This document shows, piece after piece, positions 30,386-37,640 of a DNA stretch of 64,000 bases. Numbering within the stretch: the stretch's first letter is position 1; each line of letters begins with the position of its first letter. The stretch lies in the NCBI GenBank assembly GCA_023663825.1, contig JAMPGQ010000002.1:2762-66761 (forward strand), given 5' to 3'. Made by a program: the position numbers and the translations under genes. The DNA is from Anaeroplasma bactoclasticum. GTDB taxonomy: Bacteria > Bacillota_I > Bacilli_A > Acholeplasmatales > Anaeroplasmataceae. A model generated the notes under the pieces. That model searched no databases. It was given only the letters and a program-made list of their open reading frames with translations, and had not been told where the DNA came from.

Positions 30386-30988
30386 CTAGTTTGCGTGCTT
30401 ACCACCTTTTAGATATCCTCTTTCGTTAAAGTATCTAAACATAGTGGCATTTGATAGTCCTAGTCTATCGCTAGCCTCATTACATGTCAGTTGCCCATTT
30501 TTATACATCAATCCTATTTCATCAATGTTAGGGGGAAGAATCGCTTTAGGCCTTCCAAACTTGATGCCTCTTGCTTTTGCAGCTGCAATTCCTTGAGCCT
30601 GTCTTTTAAGTATGTTCTCACGTTCAACTTGAGCCACATAGGATAATAAATTTAAGACTATATCTGTAATAAGTTTAGAGGTTAAGTCATCTTTGGAAGT
30701 ATCTAATATAGGCATATCTAAGATTTTAATTTTAATCCCTCTGGCACTTAAGTATTGCCATTCTTGTTTTATCTGATCATAGTTTCTACCAAATCTGTCA
30801 AGGGACAGAACGATGAGAGTGTCCCCCCCCTTTAGCTTTTTTCTCATCCTTTGATAATTCTTTCTTTCAAAATCTTTACCACTCTGTTTATCCTGGTACA
30901 GTACATAGGGCCTGTACTTCTCAAACTCTGCAATTTGTCTATCTAGATTTTGGTCTTCTGTACTAACTCTGGCATAACAATATATCAT
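30386..30988 (-). CDS. small serine recombinase (Hin/Gin/resolvase family DNA invertase); contains a G8 homopolymer
   Basis: MIYCYARVSTEDQNLDRQ with the catalytic Ser, GDTLIVLSLDRFGRN, and a C-terminal HTH. The track ORF runs to 31129, but the conserved start is the Met at 30988. The C8 run at 30823-30830 encodes KGGD. Confidence 0.7.
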   Translation of the reverse strand: MIYCYARVSTEDQNLDRQIAEFEKYRPYVLYQDKQSGKDFERKNYQRMRKKLKGGDTLIVLSLDRFGRNYDQIKQEWQYLSARGIKIKILDMPILDTSKDDLTSKLITDIVLNLLSYVAQVERENILKRQAQGIAAAKARGIKFGRPKAILPPNIDEIGLMYKNGQLTCNEASDRLGLSNATMFRYFNERGYLKGGKHAN

Positions 30989-31366
30989 TGCGGTATTCCC
31001 TCCTTTATTGGCTACCAAGATCAAGCGCCCGTTCACTAATGTGTAAATTGGGAGGTAATAGTTTGATGATTGCATCTGGAACGTATTATTAACGAGCAAT
31101 GCTCGGCGCTTGATTTCGACTAGAGCCACCTAGTCATCATCGGTTGGCTTTATTTAATTTTAATCTGCATTTGTTAGAATACTTATCAGATTATCGAGTT
31201 CTGATATAACCTCTTTCTTAAATTGTTCACCATAGATATACTTATTTATCAATCCTATTAGGGTATCATAGGACTTTTGTTCTTCCTGGGTTAAATAGTC
31301 TATTGGCATATGTTTCTTCTCCTCTTGGTTCACATCGTGTTATAATTATTTAAAGGAGGTGTCATT

Positions 31367-31997: not shown

Positions 31998-32002
31998 CTT
32001 TA

Positions 32003-32230
32003 CTATTCCTCCTTATTTTTGTTTGCAAAAATCATAACCAATTCTTCAATAGATGAATTAAGTACAACTGCCAATTTTGCTATGCTTGCACAACTTGGCT
32101 CACTTTTACCCCTACACCATCTATAAATTGTTGTATGAGTTTTATTCATAACTTTACCTAAGGATTCCTGGGTAAATCCTCTGTTTTTAACTAATTCTTC
32201 AAATGTCATATCTTGTCCTTTCTTTTGCAC
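32003..32230 (-). CDS. Cro-like XRE HTH regulator
   Basis: HTH segment FTQESLGKVMNKTHTTIYRWCRGK. Divergent from the cI-like repressor across an operator-rich region. Confidence 0.5.
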   Translation of the reverse strand: MQKKGQDMTFEELVKNRGFTQESLGKVMNKTHTTIYRWCRGKSEPSCASIAKLAVVLNSSIEELVMIFANKNKEE

Positions 32231-32689
32231 GTTTTTAGTGCTATAATTGATTTGTCAGCTATTGTTGGCAGGAAGGGGGTATTTGGCTTGAAGAAACTTC
32301 TTAAAGCCTTAATGCCTATGCCCTGTTGTTTTGTAATTGCAATGCTTACGGCATAAATTTCTTCCACCTGAACAATAACCGGTAAAGTGAGCGTCCTTCC
32401 ACAGAAAAGAACAGTGCATTCTGTTCTTATAATACTAATTGTAGAGAAAAGTTAATTGAACTTTTTTGGGGGTATTGGTTTCCGATATCTTCATAATTTG
32501 GATATTAACCTTTCTCACCGGTGGTGGTGCAAACACCTAAAAAGCACCTATAAAATCCTTTAGTATTATTGCAGGAGTTTAAACTAAACAAATATTGCAT
32601 CGAAGGTAATGTGAATGCACGCATTGCCTTTTTTGTTCTATTCGTTTCCAAATACCCCTTTTCTGCCAACAATAGTCGACCTCTATTCC

Positions 32690-32815
32690 TCCTATTTTGT
32701 GCACTATTTGTGCTATCTACATCCGTTATAACACAGGACGTGCACTTTGTCAACACTTTTGTTCGCTTTTTGTGCAAATAATTGCGTTTATAGTGCAAAA
32801 AATGTACAATATTAT
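32690..32815. promoter_or_regulatory. phage genetic-switch operator/promoter region with GTGCAC-based operators and the repressor promoter (TTGCGT-17-TACAAT)
   Basis: Operator-like sites TGTGCACTATTTGTGCTATC (32698-32717), GTGCACTTTGTCAAC, TTGTGCAAATAA and AGTGCAAAAAATGTACAAT. The last overlaps the -10 element of the promoter for 32835. Confidence 0.5.
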
Positions 32816-32834
32816 TAAAAAAGGAGCCAATTAT

Positions 32835-33179
32835 ATGACAAATAAAAGACTAAGAGAACTAAGATTAGAAAAGAGAATGACTTTAAGAGAGCTAAGCGAA
32901 AAATTGAATATATCATACTCAAATATTGCCATGATAGAAAGAGGCGAAAGAAATTTAACTGCTGATACAGCTAAAATTTTTTCAAGTTTTTTTAGTGTAT
33001 CTACAGATTATTTACTTGGGCTGACTGATGAAAGAAATGCTACAATTTCTTCTTCTATCAAAGACCAATTATCAGATGCTCAAATTGCTTTTTATAATCA
33101 CACCGAAAATCTTACGGATGAACAAATGCTTGATGTCATAAAATATGTAGAATTCTTAAAAAGCAAAGAGAATAAATAA
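32835..33179 (+). CDS. cI-like XRE-family repressor with C-terminal oligomerisation-type domain
   Basis: ATG at 32835 with RBS AAAGGAG. HTH segment MTLRELSEKLNISYSNIAMIERGERN. C-terminus EQMLDVIKYVEFLKSKENK. Confidence 0.55.
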   Translation: MTNKRLRELRLEKRMTLRELSEKLNISYSNIAMIERGERNLTADTAKIFSSFFSVSTDYLLGLTDERNATISSSIKDQLSDAQIAFYNHTENLTDEQMLDVIKYVEFLKSKENK

Positions 33180-33225
33180 TCTCATTTTCTCGGTACTGTA
33201 TTATAATTTGTAATAAAAGGAGCTG

Positions 33226-33576
33226 GTGGAATTGAATAATTTAAGATTTTTAAGACAGGATTTGCATATGACCCTTAGGGAATTGGCAGACAGGGTCCAT
33301 ATAGATTTTTCTGCACTATCTAGAGCAGAAAATGGAAGGCGCAATTTGAATGATAATGATATAATGATATTAACAAATTTTTTCAATGTGTCATCTGACT
33401 ATCTTCTAGGTCTCTCAGACAAAAGAGTGCCCGAGCCAATCGCCACTCCTTCTGCAGCACCTATTCAAGATGAGGCTCTTATAGCCCTTTATAATCAAAC
33501 GGAGGGCTTGAGCAAGGAACAGATGGATCAAGTTATTAGTTATGTTCAATTCTTGAAAAGTAAGGAGAACAAATAA
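33226..33576 (+). CDS. second XRE-family regulator, paralog of the cI-like repressor
   Basis: Aligns along its whole length with 32835..33179 (HTH MTLRELADRVHIDFSALSRAENGRRN, identical C-terminal FLKSKENK). A TATAAT -10 element lies at 33202-33207. Confidence 0.5.
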   Translation: MELNNLRFLRQDLHMTLRELADRVHIDFSALSRAENGRRNLNDNDIMILTNFFNVSSDYLLGLSDKRVPEPIATPSAAPIQDEALIALYNQTEGLSKEQMDQVISYVQFLKSKENK

Positions 33577-33619
33577 AAAAAATCCCAATTAAGGGAGTAA
33601 GGGAAAGGATAGAGGAAAT

Positions 33620-35158
33620 ATGGATGAATATGTAGAAAAACAACTTAAAGAAATTTTTTCAAATTTTACGAAAAGACCTGTAGCTTTTATAGGATCTGGC
33701 ATTAGCAAAAGATACCTTGATACTCCTACTTGGATAGGATTACTCAAGAAGACGTTCAATGAATATAATAGCAATATTGCTGAATTTGGTCAAATGCTCA
33801 GAAAATATGGCGATACCCATTTAGATCAAGTAGCCTCTAATATAGAAAACGACTATGATAGCTATTTCATTCATCATATCTGCACAAATCCGAATCATAA
33901 AAATTATCAACTGTATTTAGAGAATAAGAATGCAATTGATAATGGCAAAATACATCCTTACAAAATATATACAGCTAATGTCTTTAAGCAAGCCTCTTTA
34001 AACGCTATATTTAACGATGAGAGAAATGAATTTATATCCTTTATAGGTAAATGTGCAAATATTATAACTACTAACTATGACACCCTTTTAGAAAACATTT
34101 CTAATCTGGACACCATTATAGGAAGCAAGGACTTTATAAGTGAAAAATGCATAGGGTATGGTGAGTTATACAAAATACATGGTTGTTGCAGTAATCCAAA
34201 TTCTATGGTACTTACTGCTGAAGATTATCAAAACTTTAATGAGAAAAAGTCTTTTTACCATGCAAAGCTTCTTCTTTCGTTTATTCAACAACCAATTATC
34301 TTTTTGGGGTATTCCTTAAGTGATGGCTATATAGAAGGGATTTTGGAGGATGTGGCCAAAATGCTAGACGATGAAGATCTTGAAGTTTTAAGCAAAAGAC
34401 TTGTCTTCGTTGAGTATACAGAAACTCCACAGACAAGCATACGTGAGAAAATAATTAAAAAACTCCAAATGACATGCATTAGAACGAACGACTATAAAAC
34501 AATTTATAGATTAATGTCTGAAAATGTTAGAGAAGGAATCCCGCTAGACTTAGTTAAAAGGTTCCAAGAAGCTGTAAAAAACTTTATTTATGAGCAGGAT
34601 AACCCTAAGGCACTACCAGTAACAGGTATTAACGACATCAAAGATCCTAGAGGGCTCACTGCATTTCATATAGGGTCTAAACCAGTCAGTGACAATTCTT
34701 CTCTTTTCACTTCTAGAGATTTGTTAAACGACATACTTTATAACACTGGAAGGCTGCCAAATAGTGATGTAATAATCGATAAAATCCATTCTGAGGCATT
34801 AAGATTTCCAAGAGAAGCATTTACACCTCTTTATAAATATTATAATAATTCTAGCAAAAAATATTCTTTATCTGATTTATCAAAAACATTTATAACAAAC
34901 GTGTTGGATTTAAAAAAAGGCCCCGACAAGTATATAGCCAAAAATTTTATAGATTTAAAACAAAAGATTGAATCTTCATGCAACAATGAAAATGACGTAC
35001 TCCAGCTATTATTGAAAAATATTGAATTGTGTGACTCTAAATTTCTTCGTGACACATTGACAAATATTCATCCTAATCCTTTCAGCAGTGAGGAAAAGGT
35101 AGATACAAAATACCGAAAATTGATTGCGGCTATAGATTTTTTAGAAAACGGACAATAA
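33620..35158 (+). CDS. SIR2-like (sirtuin-fold, ThsA/DSR-type) protein with an uncharacterised ~260-aa C-terminal domain; candidate NAD-depleting anti-phage/abortive-infection effector
   Basis: Gly-rich N-terminus VAFIGSGISKRY, TTNYDTLLE (catalytic Asn), KIHGCCSNP (catalytic His) and IIFLGYSLSD, the order expected for a defense-type SIR2 domain. No TIR, HerA or pAgo partner lies nearby. Confidence 0.65.
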   Translation: MDEYVEKQLKEIFSNFTKRPVAFIGSGISKRYLDTPTWIGLLKKTFNEYNSNIAEFGQMLRKYGDTHLDQVASNIENDYDSYFIHHICTNPNHKNYQLYLENKNAIDNGKIHPYKIYTANVFKQASLNAIFNDERNEFISFIGKCANIITTNYDTLLENISNLDTIIGSKDFISEKCIGYGELYKIHGCCSNPNSMVLTAEDYQNFNEKKSFYHAKLLLSFIQQPIIFLGYSLSDGYIEGILEDVAKMLDDEDLEVLSKRLVFVEYTETPQTSIREKIIKKLQMTCIRTNDYKTIYRLMSENVREGIPLDLVKRFQEAVKNFIYEQDNPKALPVTGINDIKDPRGLTAFHIGSKPVSDNSSLFTSRDLLNDILYNTGRLPNSDVIIDKIHSEALRFPREAFTPLYKYYNNSSKKYSLSDLSKTFITNVLDLKKGPDKYIAKNFIDLKQKIESSCNNENDVLQLLLKNIELCDSKFLRDTLTNIHPNPFSSEEKVDTKYRKLIAAIDFLENGQ

Positions 35159-35512
35159 AAAAAGGGGCACTTTGAAACTCTACTCTACAAGAATAGTTTT
35201 CTAGTTCACATAGCTCTCCGAACTACTAAACAAGTGCTCTTCTTTTATTCTTCCGGATACATATATTTTACCATGGTTAAATTTTTTGTCAATACCTTTT
35301 TCGGTGCAATTGCACCATTTTTGTTAACTTTTTTGTGCCATGGGGCTAAAAATCAGTAGTTGCAACTCAATCAAAGCCATTACTAGCGTATGCACATATA
35401 CCTATATTTATACACATTAAAATAACTATGAGAGATAAAATATGAAGTTAGATAATCTCACTAAACTAGAACAAGAGGCTACAGAGCATAACATAAAGTC
35501 TTCTATGCAGAT

Positions 35513-35746
35513 ATGTCTAAAATGCCTTCAGATGCTCTTATCCTCTTCTATCAGGGAGAATATACCATCTTAATTGAAAGGTCCCTAGACAGGGAGAATA
35601 AGGCCATAAGACTTGCCCATGAATTAGCACATTACCATACCTGCACCTTGAGCAAATACAATTCCTCAAAAGAGGAAATCGAAAATAATGAAAGAATAGC
35701 TGTTGAATATAATATACTTAAAAGGAAGGAGGAATCTAATCAATGA
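35513..35746 (+). pseudogene. ImmA/IrrE-family (HEXXH) metallopeptidase remnant, truncated at both ends
   Basis: ILIERSLDRENKAIRLAHELAHY matches the ImmA zinc-binding core. It has only 77 aa and the N-terminal half is missing (stops in frame upstream). Confidence 0.4.
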
Positions 35747-37245
35747 AAGCTGCATTATATACACGTGTTTCTACAGATGAACAAGTTGAAAAAGGTTTCT
35801 CCTTAGAAGCTCAAAAAAGGCGTTTGATGGAATATTGCATAAAGAACAACTATGAGATTTATAGGCTTTATAGAGATGAAGGAATATCTGGTCATTCTAT
35901 TTCAAAGAGAAAGTCACTCCAGGAAATGTTGCAGGATGCAAGAGAAAAAAAGTTTGATTGTGTAGTCGTATATAAGACTGATCGTTTATCCAGGAATCTT
36001 TTAGACCTTCTGACAATAAAAAAAGAACTCGATGCTGCAGATATCGAGTTGATAATGTCTGATGAATCCGTTGACACTTCTGATGATACAGGAATGGCCA
36101 TGTTTTCTATTATGGGCGCCTTTGCAGAGCTAGAACGTAAAAAGATAAGCGAACGTCTAATGTCCGGAAAAAGACAAAAGATGAGAACAACAGGAATCAA
36201 GCCAAAACACGGGGTAATTCCTTATGCGTATATTTATGATGACATCAACAAGCAATACATAGTAGATGAAAGATATCGCCAGGATATAATTAGGATGTAT
36301 GAGATGTATGATGCTGGATCTTCTTATAATGAGATAGCACAATATATGGTAAATAACAATTTGAATTTTGGTCGAAGTAGAAATAGATGGCACGCTTCAG
36401 ACATACCACGAGTCTTAAAAAATCCAACGTATAAAGGATGGACTGGTATTTCCTACTATAATCATGTACATACCTCACTCAAATATGTAAATGATACAAT
36501 TCTCGTCAAGGCTACCAACGTGGAGCCAATTGTATCTGAAGAACTATGGGATCGTGTAAACAGTAGGGCTAATATTAAAAGTACTTACTTTGTCCGAAAG
36601 TACCCAAGTGATGTATTTATTTTTGCTGGATTACTATACTGTAGCAGTTGTGGATATCGTCTATCTACCAATCAGTCTACAGAGCGAGTTACAAAAAATG
36701 GAAAAGTTCGCTACTTCTATTATGAATGCAATTCTAAATTTAAGATATATACTAGTGAGGAAAAATGCCCTGGATTCAATATTAATAAAGATTCTTTTGA
36801 AGCTATGTTTAAAAAATTTATTAGTGGAATTTCCTCTAATAAAAAGTTTTCAAAAAAGTATAGTTCGGATGAGGCAACTGAACTAGTTAAGAAAAGGGAC
36901 AGTATCAACTATCAAATCACTACCAAGAACCGACAACGAGAAATACTATTAGAGAAACTCTCATGTCAAACTATCACAGATGATGATTTCAAATTAATGT
37001 CTAATAAACTAGTAATGGATATACAAATGCTTGCTAAAGAATTAGAAACAATCGAGAAGAGCATTTCTACAATATCAGATAAGATTGAATATGAGAATGC
37101 TATTTTAGACCATATTAATACTCTTACCTCTTTAATCAAGACATGGGACATAATTCCTAATGAGGAAAAGAAATTAATATTACATAAGTGCATCAAAAGG
37201 ATTTATGTAAATAGATCTGGAATCACCAAAATAGAATTCATCTAA
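35743..37245 (+). CDS. large serine recombinase (phage integrase)
   Basis: N-terminal resolvase domain LYTRVSTDEQ with the catalytic Ser, and VVYKTDRLSRN. Recombinase and zinc-ribbon regions (CSSCGYRL...YYECNS). C-terminal coiled coil. 500 aa. Confidence 0.85.
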   Translation: MKAALYTRVSTDEQVEKGFSLEAQKRRLMEYCIKNNYEIYRLYRDEGISGHSISKRKSLQEMLQDAREKKFDCVVVYKTDRLSRNLLDLLTIKKELDAADIELIMSDESVDTSDDTGMAMFSIMGAFAELERKKISERLMSGKRQKMRTTGIKPKHGVIPYAYIYDDINKQYIVDERYRQDIIRMYEMYDAGSSYNEIAQYMVNNNLNFGRSRNRWHASDIPRVLKNPTYKGWTGISYYNHVHTSLKYVNDTILVKATNVEPIVSEELWDRVNSRANIKSTYFVRKYPSDVFIFAGLLYCSSCGYRLSTNQSTERVTKNGKVRYFYYECNSKFKIYTSEEKCPGFNINKDSFEAMFKKFISGISSNKKFSKKYSSDEATELVKKRDSINYQITTKNRQREILLEKLSCQTITDDDFKLMSNKLVMDIQMLAKELETIEKSISTISDKIEYENAILDHINTLTSLIKTWDIIPNEEKKLILHKCIKRIYVNRSGITKIEFI

Positions 37246-37640
37246 CTTTACCTATTTACATTTGAGCAAAAATCGCATATAATATAGGCGTAAGAAACAA
37301 AATAAAAAAGGACTAGCCAGATGGCTACCCTTGAATAGTTGTTTAAACAACCACTAAGTCTGCCAAAACTAGAAGTGGTTGTTTTTTCTTTGTAGCAAAA
37401 CTACTACTAATCGAACCACAGAGGCCACGAGGCCTATTATAGCAGCGACTAGAGATATTATAACTAACACCAAAGTCTTTCCCTTTCTTAAGATTCAACA
37501 ATATCATGTATCATTCCTCCTTAAGATTTGAGGGCAACCACCTTATATTTGACTAATCCTTCTGCAGGCTTATTTTGGCCTGCATTTATATATTAGCACC
37601 AAAAATCGACAATGTAAAACATTATTTTTAATTTGGTTTT

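What the first reader, a model, noticed from the sequence alone, without database searches (positions are those of the whole stretch)
32835..35746. Tandem paralogous XRE regulators, SIR2 gene and a decayed ImmA-like peptidase form a CapH/CapP-like or ImmR/ImmA-like regulatory arrangement
Two adjacent XRE proteins (32835..33179 and 33226..33576) align end to end. Both carry an HTH around MTLREL and an identical C-terminal ...YV(E/Q)FLKSKENK, so they arose by duplication. The first faces the cro-like gene across the operators and is the cI-type repressor. The second has its own TATAAT box (33202-33207) and sits immediately before the SIR2 gene. Downstream lies a 77-aa fragment with the ImmA/IrrE core (RLAHELAHY); its N-terminal half is lost and the integrase start overlaps its C-terminus. 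HTH plus ImmA-type metallopeptidase pairs (ImmR/ImmA, and CapH/CapP in CBASS) couple expression to DNA damage. This locus may therefore show a defense gene under SOS-like control by the paralog, with the protease partner decaying.
Basis: partly seen in the sequence, partly recalled or inferred. Interest (0 to 1): 0.55.

Follow-up and report, generated by a model that had tools for sequence, protein, structure and literature searches.

The report
Prophage immunity operon with frameshifted protease
This is the repressor-protease-integrase operon that keeps a prophage dormant; it carries a SIR2 defence gene as cargo, and its small protease gene is not decayed but split across two reading frames in a way that diverged relatives also keep.

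Summary
There are two homologous XRE genes, a SIR2 gene (PADLOC candidate family PDC-S25), a short M78/ImmA-like ORF with HELAH, and a serine integrase whose start overlaps that ORF.

The locus is an ICEBs1/phi105-style immR-immA-int lysogeny operon of an Anaeroplasma-type prophage. It is not a CapH/CapP pair dedicated to SIR2.
- The peptidase sits at this position in related prophages that lack SIR2.
- SIR2 occurs in relatives with a single XRE.
- In a sister prophage that is 98-100% identical on both sides, only the DNA-binding half of XRE2 is replaced by an unrelated one.

The peptidase is not decaying. Its first 19 codons lie upstream in the 0 frame. A -1 shift at A_AAG rebuilds a 101-aa minimal zinc peptidase (AlphaFold pLDDT 93). 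The same split, at the same lysine codon, is seen in three lineages of 40-81% identity, so a programmed -1 frameshift is my preferred reading.

XRE2 is most likely a second, exchangeable immunity repressor that shares XRE1's protease-matched C-terminal module.

Seen in passing: an orphan FuFi-1 RNA lies between the XRE1 promoter region and the cro-like HTH gene.

The parts
32695..32802 (.). Operator-like repeats TTTTNNGCACTAT at 32695-32707 (+) and 32790-32802 (-). They flank the divergent promoter region. The right copy overlaps the -35 of the XRE1 promoter-like site at 32787-32815.
   Evidence: There are 3 exact copies in 64 kb against 0.13 expected. The inverted pair is I8. Both sites are conserved in sister prophage L050.
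32835..33179 (+). XRE1, the primary ImmR/cI-type repressor (114 aa): HTH_3 domain, linker and C-terminal module.
   Evidence: Pfam HTH_3 at 1.4e-13. The PADLOC capH model matches nearly full length at 1.1e-11. It is 100% identical in L050. It is the first gene after the divergent promoter region.
33180..33231 (+). XRE1-XRE2 spacer, with TATAAT at 33202-33207 and an RBS (GGAG) at 33219-33222. No terminator is present.
   Evidence: Sequence. The promoter scan does not report it. Up to 33214 it is 98.5% identical in L050, even though the downstream HTH differs. Its -10/RBS stretch resembles the region upstream of XRE1 (D8).
33232..33576 (+). XRE2, the second repressor paralogue (114 aa from TTG at 33232; the mechanical ORF starts at GTG 33226). 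Its HTH differs from XRE1 (46% identity); its C-terminal module is shared (70%).
   Evidence: The AF2 model shows a five-helix HTH (pLDDT about 90), a disordered linker at 61-94 and a C-terminal helix at 95-112.
33215..33445 (+). Exchangeable cassette: the RBS plus the HTH-coding half of XRE2.
   Evidence: blastn against L050 shows 98.5% identity up to 33214 and 98.1% from 33446 to 37258, with no match in between. The L050 HTH is 26% identical to the window's and 71% identical to the sole repressor of L008. The window's HTH is 77%, 69% and 67% identical to the sole repressors of L046, L036 and L048.
33620..35158 (+). SIR2-family protein (512 aa). It is prophage cargo and a candidate NAD+-depleting defence effector (PADLOC candidate family PDC-S25).
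   Evidence: Pfam SIR2_2 at 2.4e-23, PDC-S25 at 3.7e-95, phrog_2695 at 3.9e-87. The motifs GSG, TTNYD and KIHG are invariant in 10 homologues. All close homologues whose neighbourhoods were read lie in prophage lysogeny operons.
35160..35250 (.). Long hairpin flanked by A- and T-runs: a likely bidirectional terminator that ends the XRE1-XRE2-SIR2 transcript.
   Evidence: Folding energy is -24 kcal/mol on the + strand (z -3.1) and -31.7 kcal/mol on the - strand (z -4.6).
35265..35292 (-). Strong promoter-like site, TTGACA-16-TGnTAAAAT, pointing back toward the hairpin. It could produce an antisense RNA of about 95 nt.
   Evidence: It matches 11 of 12 positions and has an extended -10. It is conserved in L001 and L007 although their upstream cargo genes are unrelated.
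35442..35498 (+). Mini-ImmA, 0-frame part: the start codon and 19 codons (MKLDNLTKLEQEATEHNIK), ending at the proposed slip site ATA AAG T (35492-35498).
   Evidence: The peptide is conserved with synonymous changes in L001, L007, L008 and L009. It aligns with the N-termini of in-frame family members.
35495..35746 (+). Mini-ImmA, -1-frame part (KVFYADMS...HELAH...NERIA...).
   Evidence: Pfam M78. E61, H64 and E84 are invariant and H60 nearly so. The AF2 model of the 101-aa fusion has pLDDT 93.3 and pTM 0.85, and strand beta1 (residues 18-23) spans the junction. The fold and profile searches point to minigluzincins and IrrE.
35743..37245 (+). Large serine integrase (500 aa), joined to mini-ImmA by an ATGA overlap. 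The right end of the prophage is near 37258.
   Evidence: Pfam Resolvase, Recombinase and Zn_ribbon_recom; phrog_95. Homology with L050 stops at 37258.

Best explanation
Positions 32.7-37.3 kb are the lysogeny operon of a temperate phage of an Anaeroplasma-like host. It is built on the ICEBs1/phi105 plan of repressor (ImmR), anti-repressor metallopeptidase (ImmA) and integrase.

What is shown
- Gene identities and gene order.
- The same order, with varying cargo, in related prophages.
- The split structure of the peptidase gene and its conservation.
- The replacement of the XRE2 HTH cassette between sister prophages.

What is inferred
1. One promoter upstream of XRE1, bracketed by XRE1 operators, transcribes XRE1, XRE2 and SIR2 together in the lysogen. 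The transcript ends at the hairpin at 35160-35250. SIR2 is therefore expressed constitutively in the lysogen as a prophage defence cargo (a NADase-type effector). It is not an SOS-switched gene with its own regulator.
2. The peptidase is a roughly 100-aa minimal gluzincin. Making the full-length protein needs a -1 ribosomal slip of tRNA-Lys at A_AAG (35494-35497). This keeps the protease scarce.
3. Both XREs carry the C-terminal module that matches this peptidase type. Both are therefore likely substrates and would be inactivated together at induction.
4. XRE2 has no cognate operator in its own prophage. Its HTH is of a type used as the sole repressor by other phages. It most likely extends superinfection immunity to heteroimmune relatives.

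My probabilities for the separate parts: ImmR/ImmA-int operon with SIR2 as cargo 0.85; frameshift-dependent expression 0.55; XRE2 as a second immunity specificity 0.4.
For: Context in relatives
- L001: XRE, 239 aa, DUF3825, split ImmA, KAP NTPase, serine integrase, at the same htrA/tatD insertion site.
- L007: DUF3644-type cargo, then split ImmA and integrase.
- L008: XRE, split ImmA, DUF3800.
- L009 and L050: the same layout as the window.
- L035, L036, L037, L040 and L048: SIR2 lies in the same operon, with one or two XREs and in-frame or split ImmA.
- A pneumococcal phage, IPP23, also has a SIR2-like gene between its repressor and integrase.

Coupling of repressor and peptidase
- XRE C-terminal identity tracks ImmA identity (Mantel rho 0.37-0.45, p 0.024-0.009). 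HTH identity does not.
- The C-terminal module is held by purifying selection although synonymous sites are saturated.

Split peptidase
- The same 0/-1 layout occurs in five sequences of the window clade with 60-81% identity.
- It also occurs in L043 (45% identity) and L037-39 (40%), always directly after the lysine of (S/N)IK.
- In L037 the downstream frame has no ATG and was not called as a gene.
- In-frame relatives of 91-110 aa exist and align colinearly with the fusions.
- The AF2 model has pLDDT 93.3, with the junction inside strand beta1.
- The upstream peptide accumulates mainly synonymous changes: 4 synonymous against 1 non-synonymous between L001 and L007, read.

XRE2
- The cassette swap is shown.
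- The operator type of phages with an XRE2-type repressor, GTTGYNATTTT(N)NRCAAC, has no match in 32000-37300.
Against: - No transcript, protein or binding data exist.
- The slip site is not a canonical X XXY YYZ heptamer. In L043 (U AAG) and L037 (C AAA G) re-pairing would be imperfect.
- No convincing downstream stimulatory structure was found (-5 kcal/mol).
- Window-clade members have ATG codons just after the junction, so a 74-77-aa product could be made independently. In L001 and L007 the upstream ORF ends in an ATGA overlap that would allow re-initiation.
- The hairpin after SIR2 would limit read-through into immA-int, and I found no good + strand promoter for them.
- The C-terminal module and the ImmA gene are linked on the same DNA, so their correlation could reflect co-inheritance (n = 10 loci).
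- The operator consensus for XRE2 is inferred by analogy from other phages. All these phages share TTTTGTG-rich operators, so specificities may overlap.
- A third exact copy of the XRE1-type motif lies inside XRE2 (33307), and its meaning is unclear.
Confidence: 0.6

Rival explanations
1. XRE2 is a CapH-like repressor dedicated to SIR2, with its own promoter. SIR2 is switched on after DNA damage when an ImmA/CapP-type protease cleaves XRE2, and that protease is now decaying.
For: - Both XREs match the PADLOC capH model almost end to end.
- XRE2 lies directly upstream of SIR2 in the window, L009, L050 and (as the only XRE) L037 and L048.
- A TATAAT lies in the spacer, and the stretch resembles XRE1's own -10/RBS region.
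Against: - The peptidase is at this position in prophages without SIR2.
- SIR2 occurs without a second XRE.
- L035 has an ImmA gene between XRE2 and SIR2.
- The XRE2 HTH is replaced in L050 while the spacer, SIR2 and the 43-nt XRE2-SIR2 gap stay 98% identical.
- There is no palindrome or XRE2-type operator near SIR2.
- There is no GAF domain and no divergent layout, both of which CapH/CapP have.
- The peptidase gene is conserved, not decaying.
Confidence: 0.07
2. The split peptidase gene is not recoded. Either only the 74-77-aa C-terminal ORF is translated, as a truncated protein that may be regulatory or inactive, or the gene is a tolerated pseudogene and induction uses another route.
For: - Gene callers annotate 71-81-aa proteins starting at conserved Met codons.
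- The slip site is non-canonical and no stimulatory structure was found.
- The in-frame relative in L040 has YELAH in place of HELAH, so catalytically dead versions of this family exist.
Against: - The upstream 17-19-codon ORF keeps its start, frame and amino-acid sequence across five diverged sequences, with synonymous changes.
- The frame change is at the same lysine codon in three lineages, whereas in-frame relatives have T/S/A there.
- L037-39 lack any ATG in the downstream frame.
- There is no Shine-Dalgarno sequence before the internal ATGs.
- A product starting at the internal ATG would lack helix 1 and part of strand beta1 of a confidently predicted compact fold.
- No second lesion is seen in any copy.
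Confidence: 0.25
3. XRE2 is a by-product of recombination between heteroimmune phages in the conserved C-terminal coding region. It is either functionless, or it acts inside the phage's own switch, for example as a heterodimer partner of XRE1, rather than against other phages.
For: - The cassette boundaries lie in conserved DNA: the spacer and the C-terminal module.
- HTH and C-terminal combinations are mosaic.
- The shared C-terminal module could support mixed oligomers, as the CapH C-terminal domain oligomerises.
Against: - XRE2 is intact in four independent tandem loci: the window, L050, L009 and L035.
- Its C-terminal module is under purifying selection (pN 0.21 against pS 0.87).
- A role in the phage's own switch is hard to reconcile with swapping in a 26%-identical HTH between otherwise 98-100% identical prophages.
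Confidence: 0.2

Closest known systems
ImmR-ImmA-Int module of Bacillus subtilis ICEBs1 and phage phi105 (Bose et al. 2008; Bose & Grossman 2011, as summarised in bioRxiv 10.1101/2022.04.27.489752)
   Same: - An HTH_3 repressor is the first gene, followed on the same strand by an M78/DUF955 HEXXH peptidase and the integrase.
- The repressor has an HTH, a linker and a short C-terminal module.
- The peptidase type co-varies with that module.
   Different: - The peptidase is only about 100 aa, against 169 aa as I recall for ImmA. It is a bare catalytic core and is encoded in two frames.
- There are two repressor paralogues instead of one.
- A 1.5-kb SIR2 cargo gene and a terminator-like hairpin lie between repressor and peptidase.
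- The integrase is a serine recombinase.
CapH/CapP regulators of CBASS and other defence operons (bioRxiv 10.1101/2022.04.27.489752)
   Same: - A small HTH protein with a C-terminal oligomerisation module, plus a PF06114 zinc peptidase, lie next to a defence gene.
- The PADLOC capH and capP models give hits.
   Different: - CapH/CapP lie upstream of the defence operon on the opposite strand and travel with it.
- CapP has a GAF domain that binds ssDNA, and often a cysteine switch.
- Here the genes are co-directional and the peptidase has no sensor domain.
- The pair belongs to the prophage, not to SIR2.
Minigluzincins (proabylysin 4JIU, selecase 4QHG): soluble HEXXH...E metallopeptidases of about 100 residues
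   Same: - They are the best PDB profile and fold matches.
- They have the same size and the same order of elements: helix, three strands, HEXXH helix, glutamate helix.
   Different: - The similarity is low (E 0.005, TM about 0.4).
- They are archaeal proteins with no link to repressors.
- The family here scores as M78 in Pfam.
Known -1 frameshifts on A_AAG: B. subtilis cdd (CGA AAG), dnaX (A AAA AAG), lambda G/GT (G GGA AAG). These are cited from my own knowledge and were not checked here.
   Same: - A lysine AAG codon preceded by A lets tRNA-Lys re-pair in the -1 frame.
- An SD-like GAGG lies 16-17 nt upstream and is invariant in the window clade.
   Different: - There is no tandem-slippery heptamer.
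- Two of the three lineages have imperfect re-pairing.
- No stimulatory hairpin was found.
- No frameshift in an ImmA-type gene turned up in my literature search.
SIR2-domain anti-phage effectors (ThsA, DSR1/2, SIR2-HerA) and the PADLOC candidate PDC-S25
   Same: - It has a SIR2_2 domain with conserved Asn/Asp and His motifs.
- It gives a full-length match to PDC-S25.
   Different: - It is a single gene with an uncharacterised C-terminal half of about 220 aa.
- PDC-S25 is only a candidate family, and I found no experimental paper on it.

Membership tests
ImmR/ImmA-int lysogeny module | The HTH_3 (XRE) repressor is the first gene of an operon that also encodes the peptidase and the integrase on the same strand. 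| tested here: met
   ORF map and Pfam. The same order is seen in 9 related loci.
ImmR/ImmA-int lysogeny module | An M78/DUF955 zinc metallopeptidase with HEXXH and a downstream Glu ligand. | tested here: met
   Pfam PF06114 scores 36 bits for the fusion. E61, H64 and E84 are invariant and H60 nearly so. The fold matches gluzincins and IrrE.
ImmR/ImmA-int lysogeny module | The peptidase is encoded by one uninterrupted ORF. | tested here: not met
   The N-terminal 19 codons are in a different frame. This is conserved in relatives.
ImmR/ImmA-int lysogeny module | The peptidase cleaves the repressor near its C-terminal module upon an induction signal. | not testable with these tools
   Only indirect evidence exists: the XRE C-terminal module co-varies with the ImmA type.
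CapH/CapP defence regulators | The pair is encoded directly upstream of the defence operon on the opposite strand and shares its promoter region. | tested here: not met
   All genes are on the + strand and SIR2 lies between the XREs and the peptidase.
CapH/CapP defence regulators | The peptidase carries a C-terminal GAF domain that senses ssDNA. | tested here: not met
   The whole protein is 101 aa and a single compact domain. Pfam finds M78 only.
CapH/CapP defence regulators | The regulator pair co-occurs with the defence genes it controls. | tested here: not met
   The peptidase occurs without SIR2 in L001, L007, L008 and L046. SIR2 occurs with one XRE in L036, L037, L040 and L048.
CapH/CapP defence regulators | The repressor consists of an N-terminal HTH plus a C-terminal helical oligomerisation domain. 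| tested here: inconclusive
   The capH HMM matches at 1e-11 and 5e-7 over nearly its full length. The AF2 monomer shows the HTH, a disordered linker and one C-terminal helix at low confidence. The oligomeric state is untestable here.
SIR2 defence effectors (PADLOC PDC-S25) | A SIR2_2 domain with the conserved catalytic Asn/Asp and His motifs, and a full-length match to the family model. | tested here: met
   PDC-S25 at 3.7e-95 over residues 5-511. TTNYD and KIHG are invariant.
SIR2 defence effectors (PADLOC PDC-S25) | NADase activity and protection against phage. | not testable with these tools
   I found no experimental report for PDC-S25.
Programmed -1 ribosomal frameshift | Two overlapping ORFs in a 0/-1 relation whose fusion restores a full-length homologue. 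| tested here: met
   The in-frame relatives P0128, P0130-P0132, P0134 and P0135 align colinearly with the fusion.
Programmed -1 ribosomal frameshift | The split and the slip codon are conserved in diverged relatives, with both ORFs under selection. | tested here: met
   Five window-clade sequences plus L043 and L037-39. The junction codon is always Lys.
Programmed -1 ribosomal frameshift | A canonical slippery heptamer X XXY YYZ. | tested here: not met
   The sites are C AUA AAG, C CUA AAG, A AUU AAG and U AUC AAA. Only single-tRNA slippage is possible.
Programmed -1 ribosomal frameshift | A stimulatory element: a 3' structure or a 5' SD-like sequence. | tested here: inconclusive
   The RNAalifold consensus is only -5.1 kcal/mol. 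An invariant AGGC/GAGG lies 16-17 nt upstream but also encodes Glu-Ala.
Programmed -1 ribosomal frameshift | The trans-frame protein is detected. | not testable with these tools
   This needs mass spectrometry, a tagged construct or a reporter.
FuFi-1 RNA (Rfam RF02986) | A score above the Rfam gathering threshold with a full-length model match and a 3' terminator. | tested here: met
   74.1 bits against a threshold of 59.6, model positions 1-175. A terminator-like site lies at 32602-32631.

The most novel reading that the evidence does not exclude
A family of roughly 100-residue ImmA-type anti-repressor proteases in prophages of Anaeroplasma-like gut bacteria is expressed only through a conserved programmed -1 ribosomal frameshift at a lysine codon. 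This sets the dose of the induction protease. The same prophages carry a second repressor whose DNA-binding domain is an exchangeable cassette copied from the primary repressors of competing phages, while its C-terminal module keeps it under control of the resident protease. The result would be a plug-in, co-inducible extension of superinfection immunity.
Probability: 0.25. Interest if true: 0.75.

Novelty: new variant of a known kind. Interest (0 to 1): 0.58.

Why it matters
ImmR/ImmA-type switches control induction of many Firmicute prophages and ICEs, and ImmA dosage is known to decide whether the element stays silent. A conserved recoding event in the protease gene would be a new layer of control of induction. 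It would also show that these roughly 75-aa 'hypothetical proteins' are mis-annotated halves of a real enzyme.

The HTH-cassette exchange in the second repressor between near-identical prophages gives a concrete, testable case of modular evolution of immunity specificity. It may also be a case of prophages borrowing rivals' repressor specificities.

For defence-system surveys, the locus is a caution. An XRE plus an M78 peptidase next to a SIR2 gene here belongs to the phage switch, not to the defence gene.

The recurrent placement of the orphan FuFi-1 RNA beside a small HTH gene in the early region of these phages gives that RNA class a biological context to test.

Tried and rejected
- blastn of 32000-37300 against 50,697 phage records found only a 73-nt integrase patch, so there is no close cultured relative.
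- The ImmA alignment found nothing in IMG/VR and only two loci in JGI metagenomes. The exhaustive HMMER search gave only 11 family members, so statistics on the split rest on few lineages.
- I looked for XRE2-type operators in the window using the consensus from L036, L046 and L048. Matches were at or below chance and none lay in the locus.
- I considered the palindrome inside XRE2 (33307-33332) as an intragenic operator. It falls on the codons for FSALSRAEN, and L046, which has the same amino acids there, carries a similar palindrome at that position. It may therefore be a by-product of coding, and I did not rely on it.
- I looked for a frameshift-stimulating hairpin with RNAalifold and found none that was convincing.
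- I first read the 33-nt inverted repeat around FuFi-1 as MITE ends. Different but still complementary arms in L008 and L036 argue for a conserved long stem instead.
- I considered a recent tandem duplication of the XREs and rejected it because synonymous sites are saturated.
The model was built with the window fusion plus database homologues.

Full report
SETTING

The window holds a prophage that runs from before position 1 to about 37258.
- Lytic genes are on the - strand, from 32230 down to 1. A lysogeny operon is on the + strand at 32835-37245.
- Host genes follow: an htrA-like protease, tatD, EF-Tu and rpoBC.
- The SIR2 protein is 100% identical to a database entry named from 'Roseburia sp.' and Anaeroplasma bactoclasticum MAGs.
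- G+C is 34%.
- No cultured phage is related at the DNA level.

CHECKING THE OBSERVATION

The two XRE proteins are real homologues: 51% identity over their whole length, E 1e-33. Both are HTH_3 proteins, and both match the PADLOC capH model almost end to end.

The SIR2 gene is a full-length member of the PADLOC candidate family PDC-S25 (3.7e-95) and of phrog_2695. The NAD-pocket and catalytic motifs (GSG, TTNYD, KIHG) are invariant among ten homologues.

The 77-aa ORF matches Peptidase_M78 and contains HELAH. The integrase is a large serine recombinase whose ATG overlaps the ORF's stop as ATGA.

The TATAAT at 33202-33207 exists, but three points weaken it as a promoter.
- It has no usable -35 and the promoter scan did not report it.
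- The hexamer occurs 108 times on the two strands of the window.
- The XRE2 start is more likely TTG at 33232, 9 nt after GGAG, than GTG at 33226. NCBI's 102-aa call (P0136) removes helix 1.

THE PEPTIDASE IS NOT DECAYED

Three-frame translation shows a short ORF at 35442, MKLDNLTKLEQEATEHNIK..., that runs into the M78 ORF one frame away. Joining them by a -1 shift at ATA AAG T gives a 101-aa protein. Its Pfam M78 score rises from 23 to 36 bits and now covers model positions 2-70.

The database holds four other clusters of 71-75-aa proteins that are 60-81% identical. In each of their loci the same upstream ORF, the same -1 relation and the same (A/C)TA AAG TCT junction are present, with synonymous changes in the upstream codons.

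Two more distant lineages change frame at exactly the same aligned position, directly after the lysine of (S/N)IK.
- L043, at 45% identity, has ATT AAG TGG.
- L037-39, at 40% identity, have ATC AAA GAT. The L037 downstream frame has no ATG at all and was not called as a gene.

An exhaustive profile search found only 11 family members.
- Several are in-frame proteins of 91-110 aa. They align colinearly with the conceptual fusions.
- E61, H64 and E84 are invariant and H60 nearly so.
- The in-frame members have T, S, A, N or E (mostly T or S) where the split genes have lysine.

AlphaFold2 models the fusion as one compact domain (pLDDT 93.3, pTM 0.85). Its elements are a helix at 5-15, three strands, the HEXXH helix and a long glutamate helix, and strand beta1 (residues 18-23) spans the junction.

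The best solved-structure matches are the roughly 105-residue minigluzincins, followed by ZMPSTE24, SPRTN/Wss1 and IrrE/PprI, all at modest scores.

Independent decay would not hit the same codon three times, leave both halves open and conserved, and add no second lesion. I therefore favour a programmed -1 slip of tRNA-Lys (probability about 0.55).

Caveats: the site is not a canonical heptamer, re-pairing is imperfect in two lineages, no stimulatory structure was found, and window-clade members have internal ATGs.

WHAT THE PEPTIDASE AND XREs BELONG TO

Related prophages, some at the same htrA/tatD insertion site, show one backbone with variable cargo.

| Locus | Gene order |
|---|---|
| L001 | XRE, 239 aa, DUF3825, split ImmA, KAP NTPase, serine integrase |
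| L007 | DUF3644-type cargo, split ImmA, next gene cut at the contig end (393 aa, not identified) |
| L008 | XRE, split ImmA, DUF3800, 171 aa, 62 aa, tyrosine integrase |
| L046 | XRE, ImmA (150 aa), 66 aa, tyrosine integrase |

Every close SIR2 homologue whose neighbourhood was read (47-52% identity, plus the 97%-identical L050 copy) also lies inside such an operon, but in different arrangements.

| Locus | Gene order |
|---|---|
| L035 | XRE, XRE, ImmA (142 aa), SIR2 |
| L036 | XRE, ImmA (141 aa), SIR2 |
| L037 | XRE, SIR2, split ImmA |
| L040 | XRE, ImmA (98 aa), 65 aa, SIR2 |
| L048 | XRE, SIR2, ImmA (136 aa) |
| L009, L050, window | XRE, XRE, SIR2, split ImmA |

A pneumococcal phage also has a SIR2-like gene between its repressor and integrase.

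Three conclusions follow.
- The peptidase belongs to the phage switch.
- SIR2 is cargo in a variable slot.
- A second XRE is neither necessary for SIR2 nor always next to it.

There is no terminator or promoter-like site between XRE1, XRE2 and SIR2. A strong hairpin follows SIR2. I therefore infer co-transcription of the three genes in the lysogen.

MODULAR REPRESSORS

The XRE proteins are mosaics.
- The last roughly 35 residues fall into types that go with the ImmA type of the locus. The HTH halves assort independently.
- Across ten loci, ImmA identity correlates with XRE C-terminal identity (Mantel rho 0.37-0.45, p 0.024-0.009) but not with HTH identity (rho about -0.06).
- Within the window, XRE1 and XRE2 are saturated at synonymous sites, yet the C-terminal module has the lowest non-synonymous divergence. 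The shared tail is therefore maintained by selection, not by recent duplication or gene conversion.
- By analogy with ImmR and CapH, which are cleaved at the start of the C-terminal module, both XREs are plausible substrates of the mini-ImmA. This is inference.

THE KEY COMPARISON FOR XRE2

L050 is a contig from an Anaeroplasma bactoclasticum MAG and carries a sister prophage.

| Feature | Identity to the window |
|---|---|
| XRE1 | 100% |
| SIR2 | 97% |
| Mini-ImmA | 100% |
| Integrase | 99.6% |
| XRE2, C-terminal half | 100% |
| XRE2, HTH half | 26% |

The exchanged DNA is 33215-33445, flanked by 98% identical sequence on both sides.
- L050's XRE2 HTH is 71% identical to the sole repressor of L008.
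- The window's XRE2 HTH is 77%, 69% and 67% identical to the sole repressors of L046, L036 and L048.
- Those three phages share an operator type, GTTGYNATTTT(N)NRCAAC, in their divergent promoter regions. That type has no match in 32000-37300 of the window.
- By contrast, the motif TTTTNNGCACTAT brackets the XRE1 promoter region. It occurs three times in 64 kb against 0.13 expected.

A dedicated SIR2 regulator would not be expected to change specificity while its target DNA stays the same. My preferred reading (about 0.4) is that XRE2 is a second immunity specificity aimed at other phages and removable by the same protease. The alternatives are a recombination relic or a partner of XRE1.

COMPARISON WITH KNOWN SYSTEMS

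The locus works like ImmR/ImmA-Int and meets that module's architectural criteria, except for the uninterrupted peptidase ORF.

It fails three defining features of CapH/CapP:
- the divergent position upstream of the defence operon;
- the GAF sensor domain;
- co-occurrence with the defence gene.

I found no paper describing a frameshifted ImmA gene or tandem cassette-swapped repressors. PDC-S25 has no experimental literature in the library.

VERDICT

- The ImmR/ImmA reading is supported.
- The model of CapH/CapP-like control of SIR2 by the paralogue, with a decaying protease, is not supported.
- The locus is a new variant of a known kind. Its interest lies in the conserved split peptidase gene and the exchangeable second repressor.

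Noticed in passing
window 32342-32634 (+), with flanking arms at 32254-32286 and 32648-32680: A full-length FuFi-1 RNA (Rfam RF02986; 74 bits against a gathering score of 59.6) lies between the XRE1 promoter region and the 75-aa HTH 'cro-like' gene. FuFi-1 is an orphan structured RNA of unknown function (PMC5737381). The same RNA sits divergently next to the homologous small HTH gene in L001, L008, L036 and L050. In the window, L008 and L036 it is bracketed by a 24-33-nt inverted repeat whose sequence differs between loci but stays complementary. The 3' arm lies beyond the predicted terminator.
   Followed up: partly
window 35150-35292 (- strand): A near-consensus promoter, TTGACA-16-TGnTAAAAT (35292 to 35265), points at a strongly folding stretch (-31.7 kcal/mol, z -4.6) that ends in a T-run. 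This is a candidate antisense sRNA of about 95 nt between SIR2 and immA. The promoter is conserved in L001 and L007 although the upstream cargo differs. No Rfam family matches.
   Followed up: partly
window 32683-32693 compared with L050 4326-5451: The sister prophage has an extra 1.1 kb here, carrying three - strand genes (86, 163 and 66 aa) and flanked by the direct repeat CTATTCCTCCT. The window has one copy of the repeat and an orphan RBS. This looks like a deletion of early genes next to the immunity promoter.
   Followed up: partly
window 35303-35316: A perfect palindrome, GGTGCAATTGCACC, followed by a T-run lies upstream of immA. L009 has a different perfect palindrome (ATACAATTGTAT) at the equivalent place, and L007 has a further, non-palindromic sequence (CGCACATCTGCG) there. 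It could be a repressor-specific operator or a small attenuator for immA-int.
   Followed up: no
window 33307-33332, inside XRE2: A third exact copy of the XRE1-type operator motif, TTTTCTGCACTAT, forms part of a palindrome inside the codons for the XRE2 recognition helix. L046 has the same amino acids and a similar palindrome at this place, so it may be a coding by-product or an intragenic operator.
   Followed up: partly
L040 5423-5719 (P0132): The in-frame 98-aa mini-ImmA of this SIR2-carrying prophage has YELAH instead of HELAH. The first zinc-binding histidine is lost, so the protein is probably catalytically dead.
   Followed up: no
L010 7998-9516 (Anaeroplasmataceae MAG): A SIR2 homologue is broken into 92-aa and 372-aa ORFs about 3 kb from an htrA-like gene, with no repressor or integrase nearby. 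It looks like a remnant of a prophage of this family at the same insertion site.
   Followed up: no
window 30386-31129 (-): A small serine recombinase (a resolvase/invertase-type protein with a C-terminal HTH_7 domain) is encoded among the early genes, in addition to the large serine integrase. L035 has a similar gene.
   Followed up: no
window 33226-33270: The public annotation of XRE2 (P0136, 102 aa) starts at the internal ATG at 33268 and removes the first HTH helix. The alignment with XRE1 and the RBS spacing favour TTG at 33232.
   Followed up: yes
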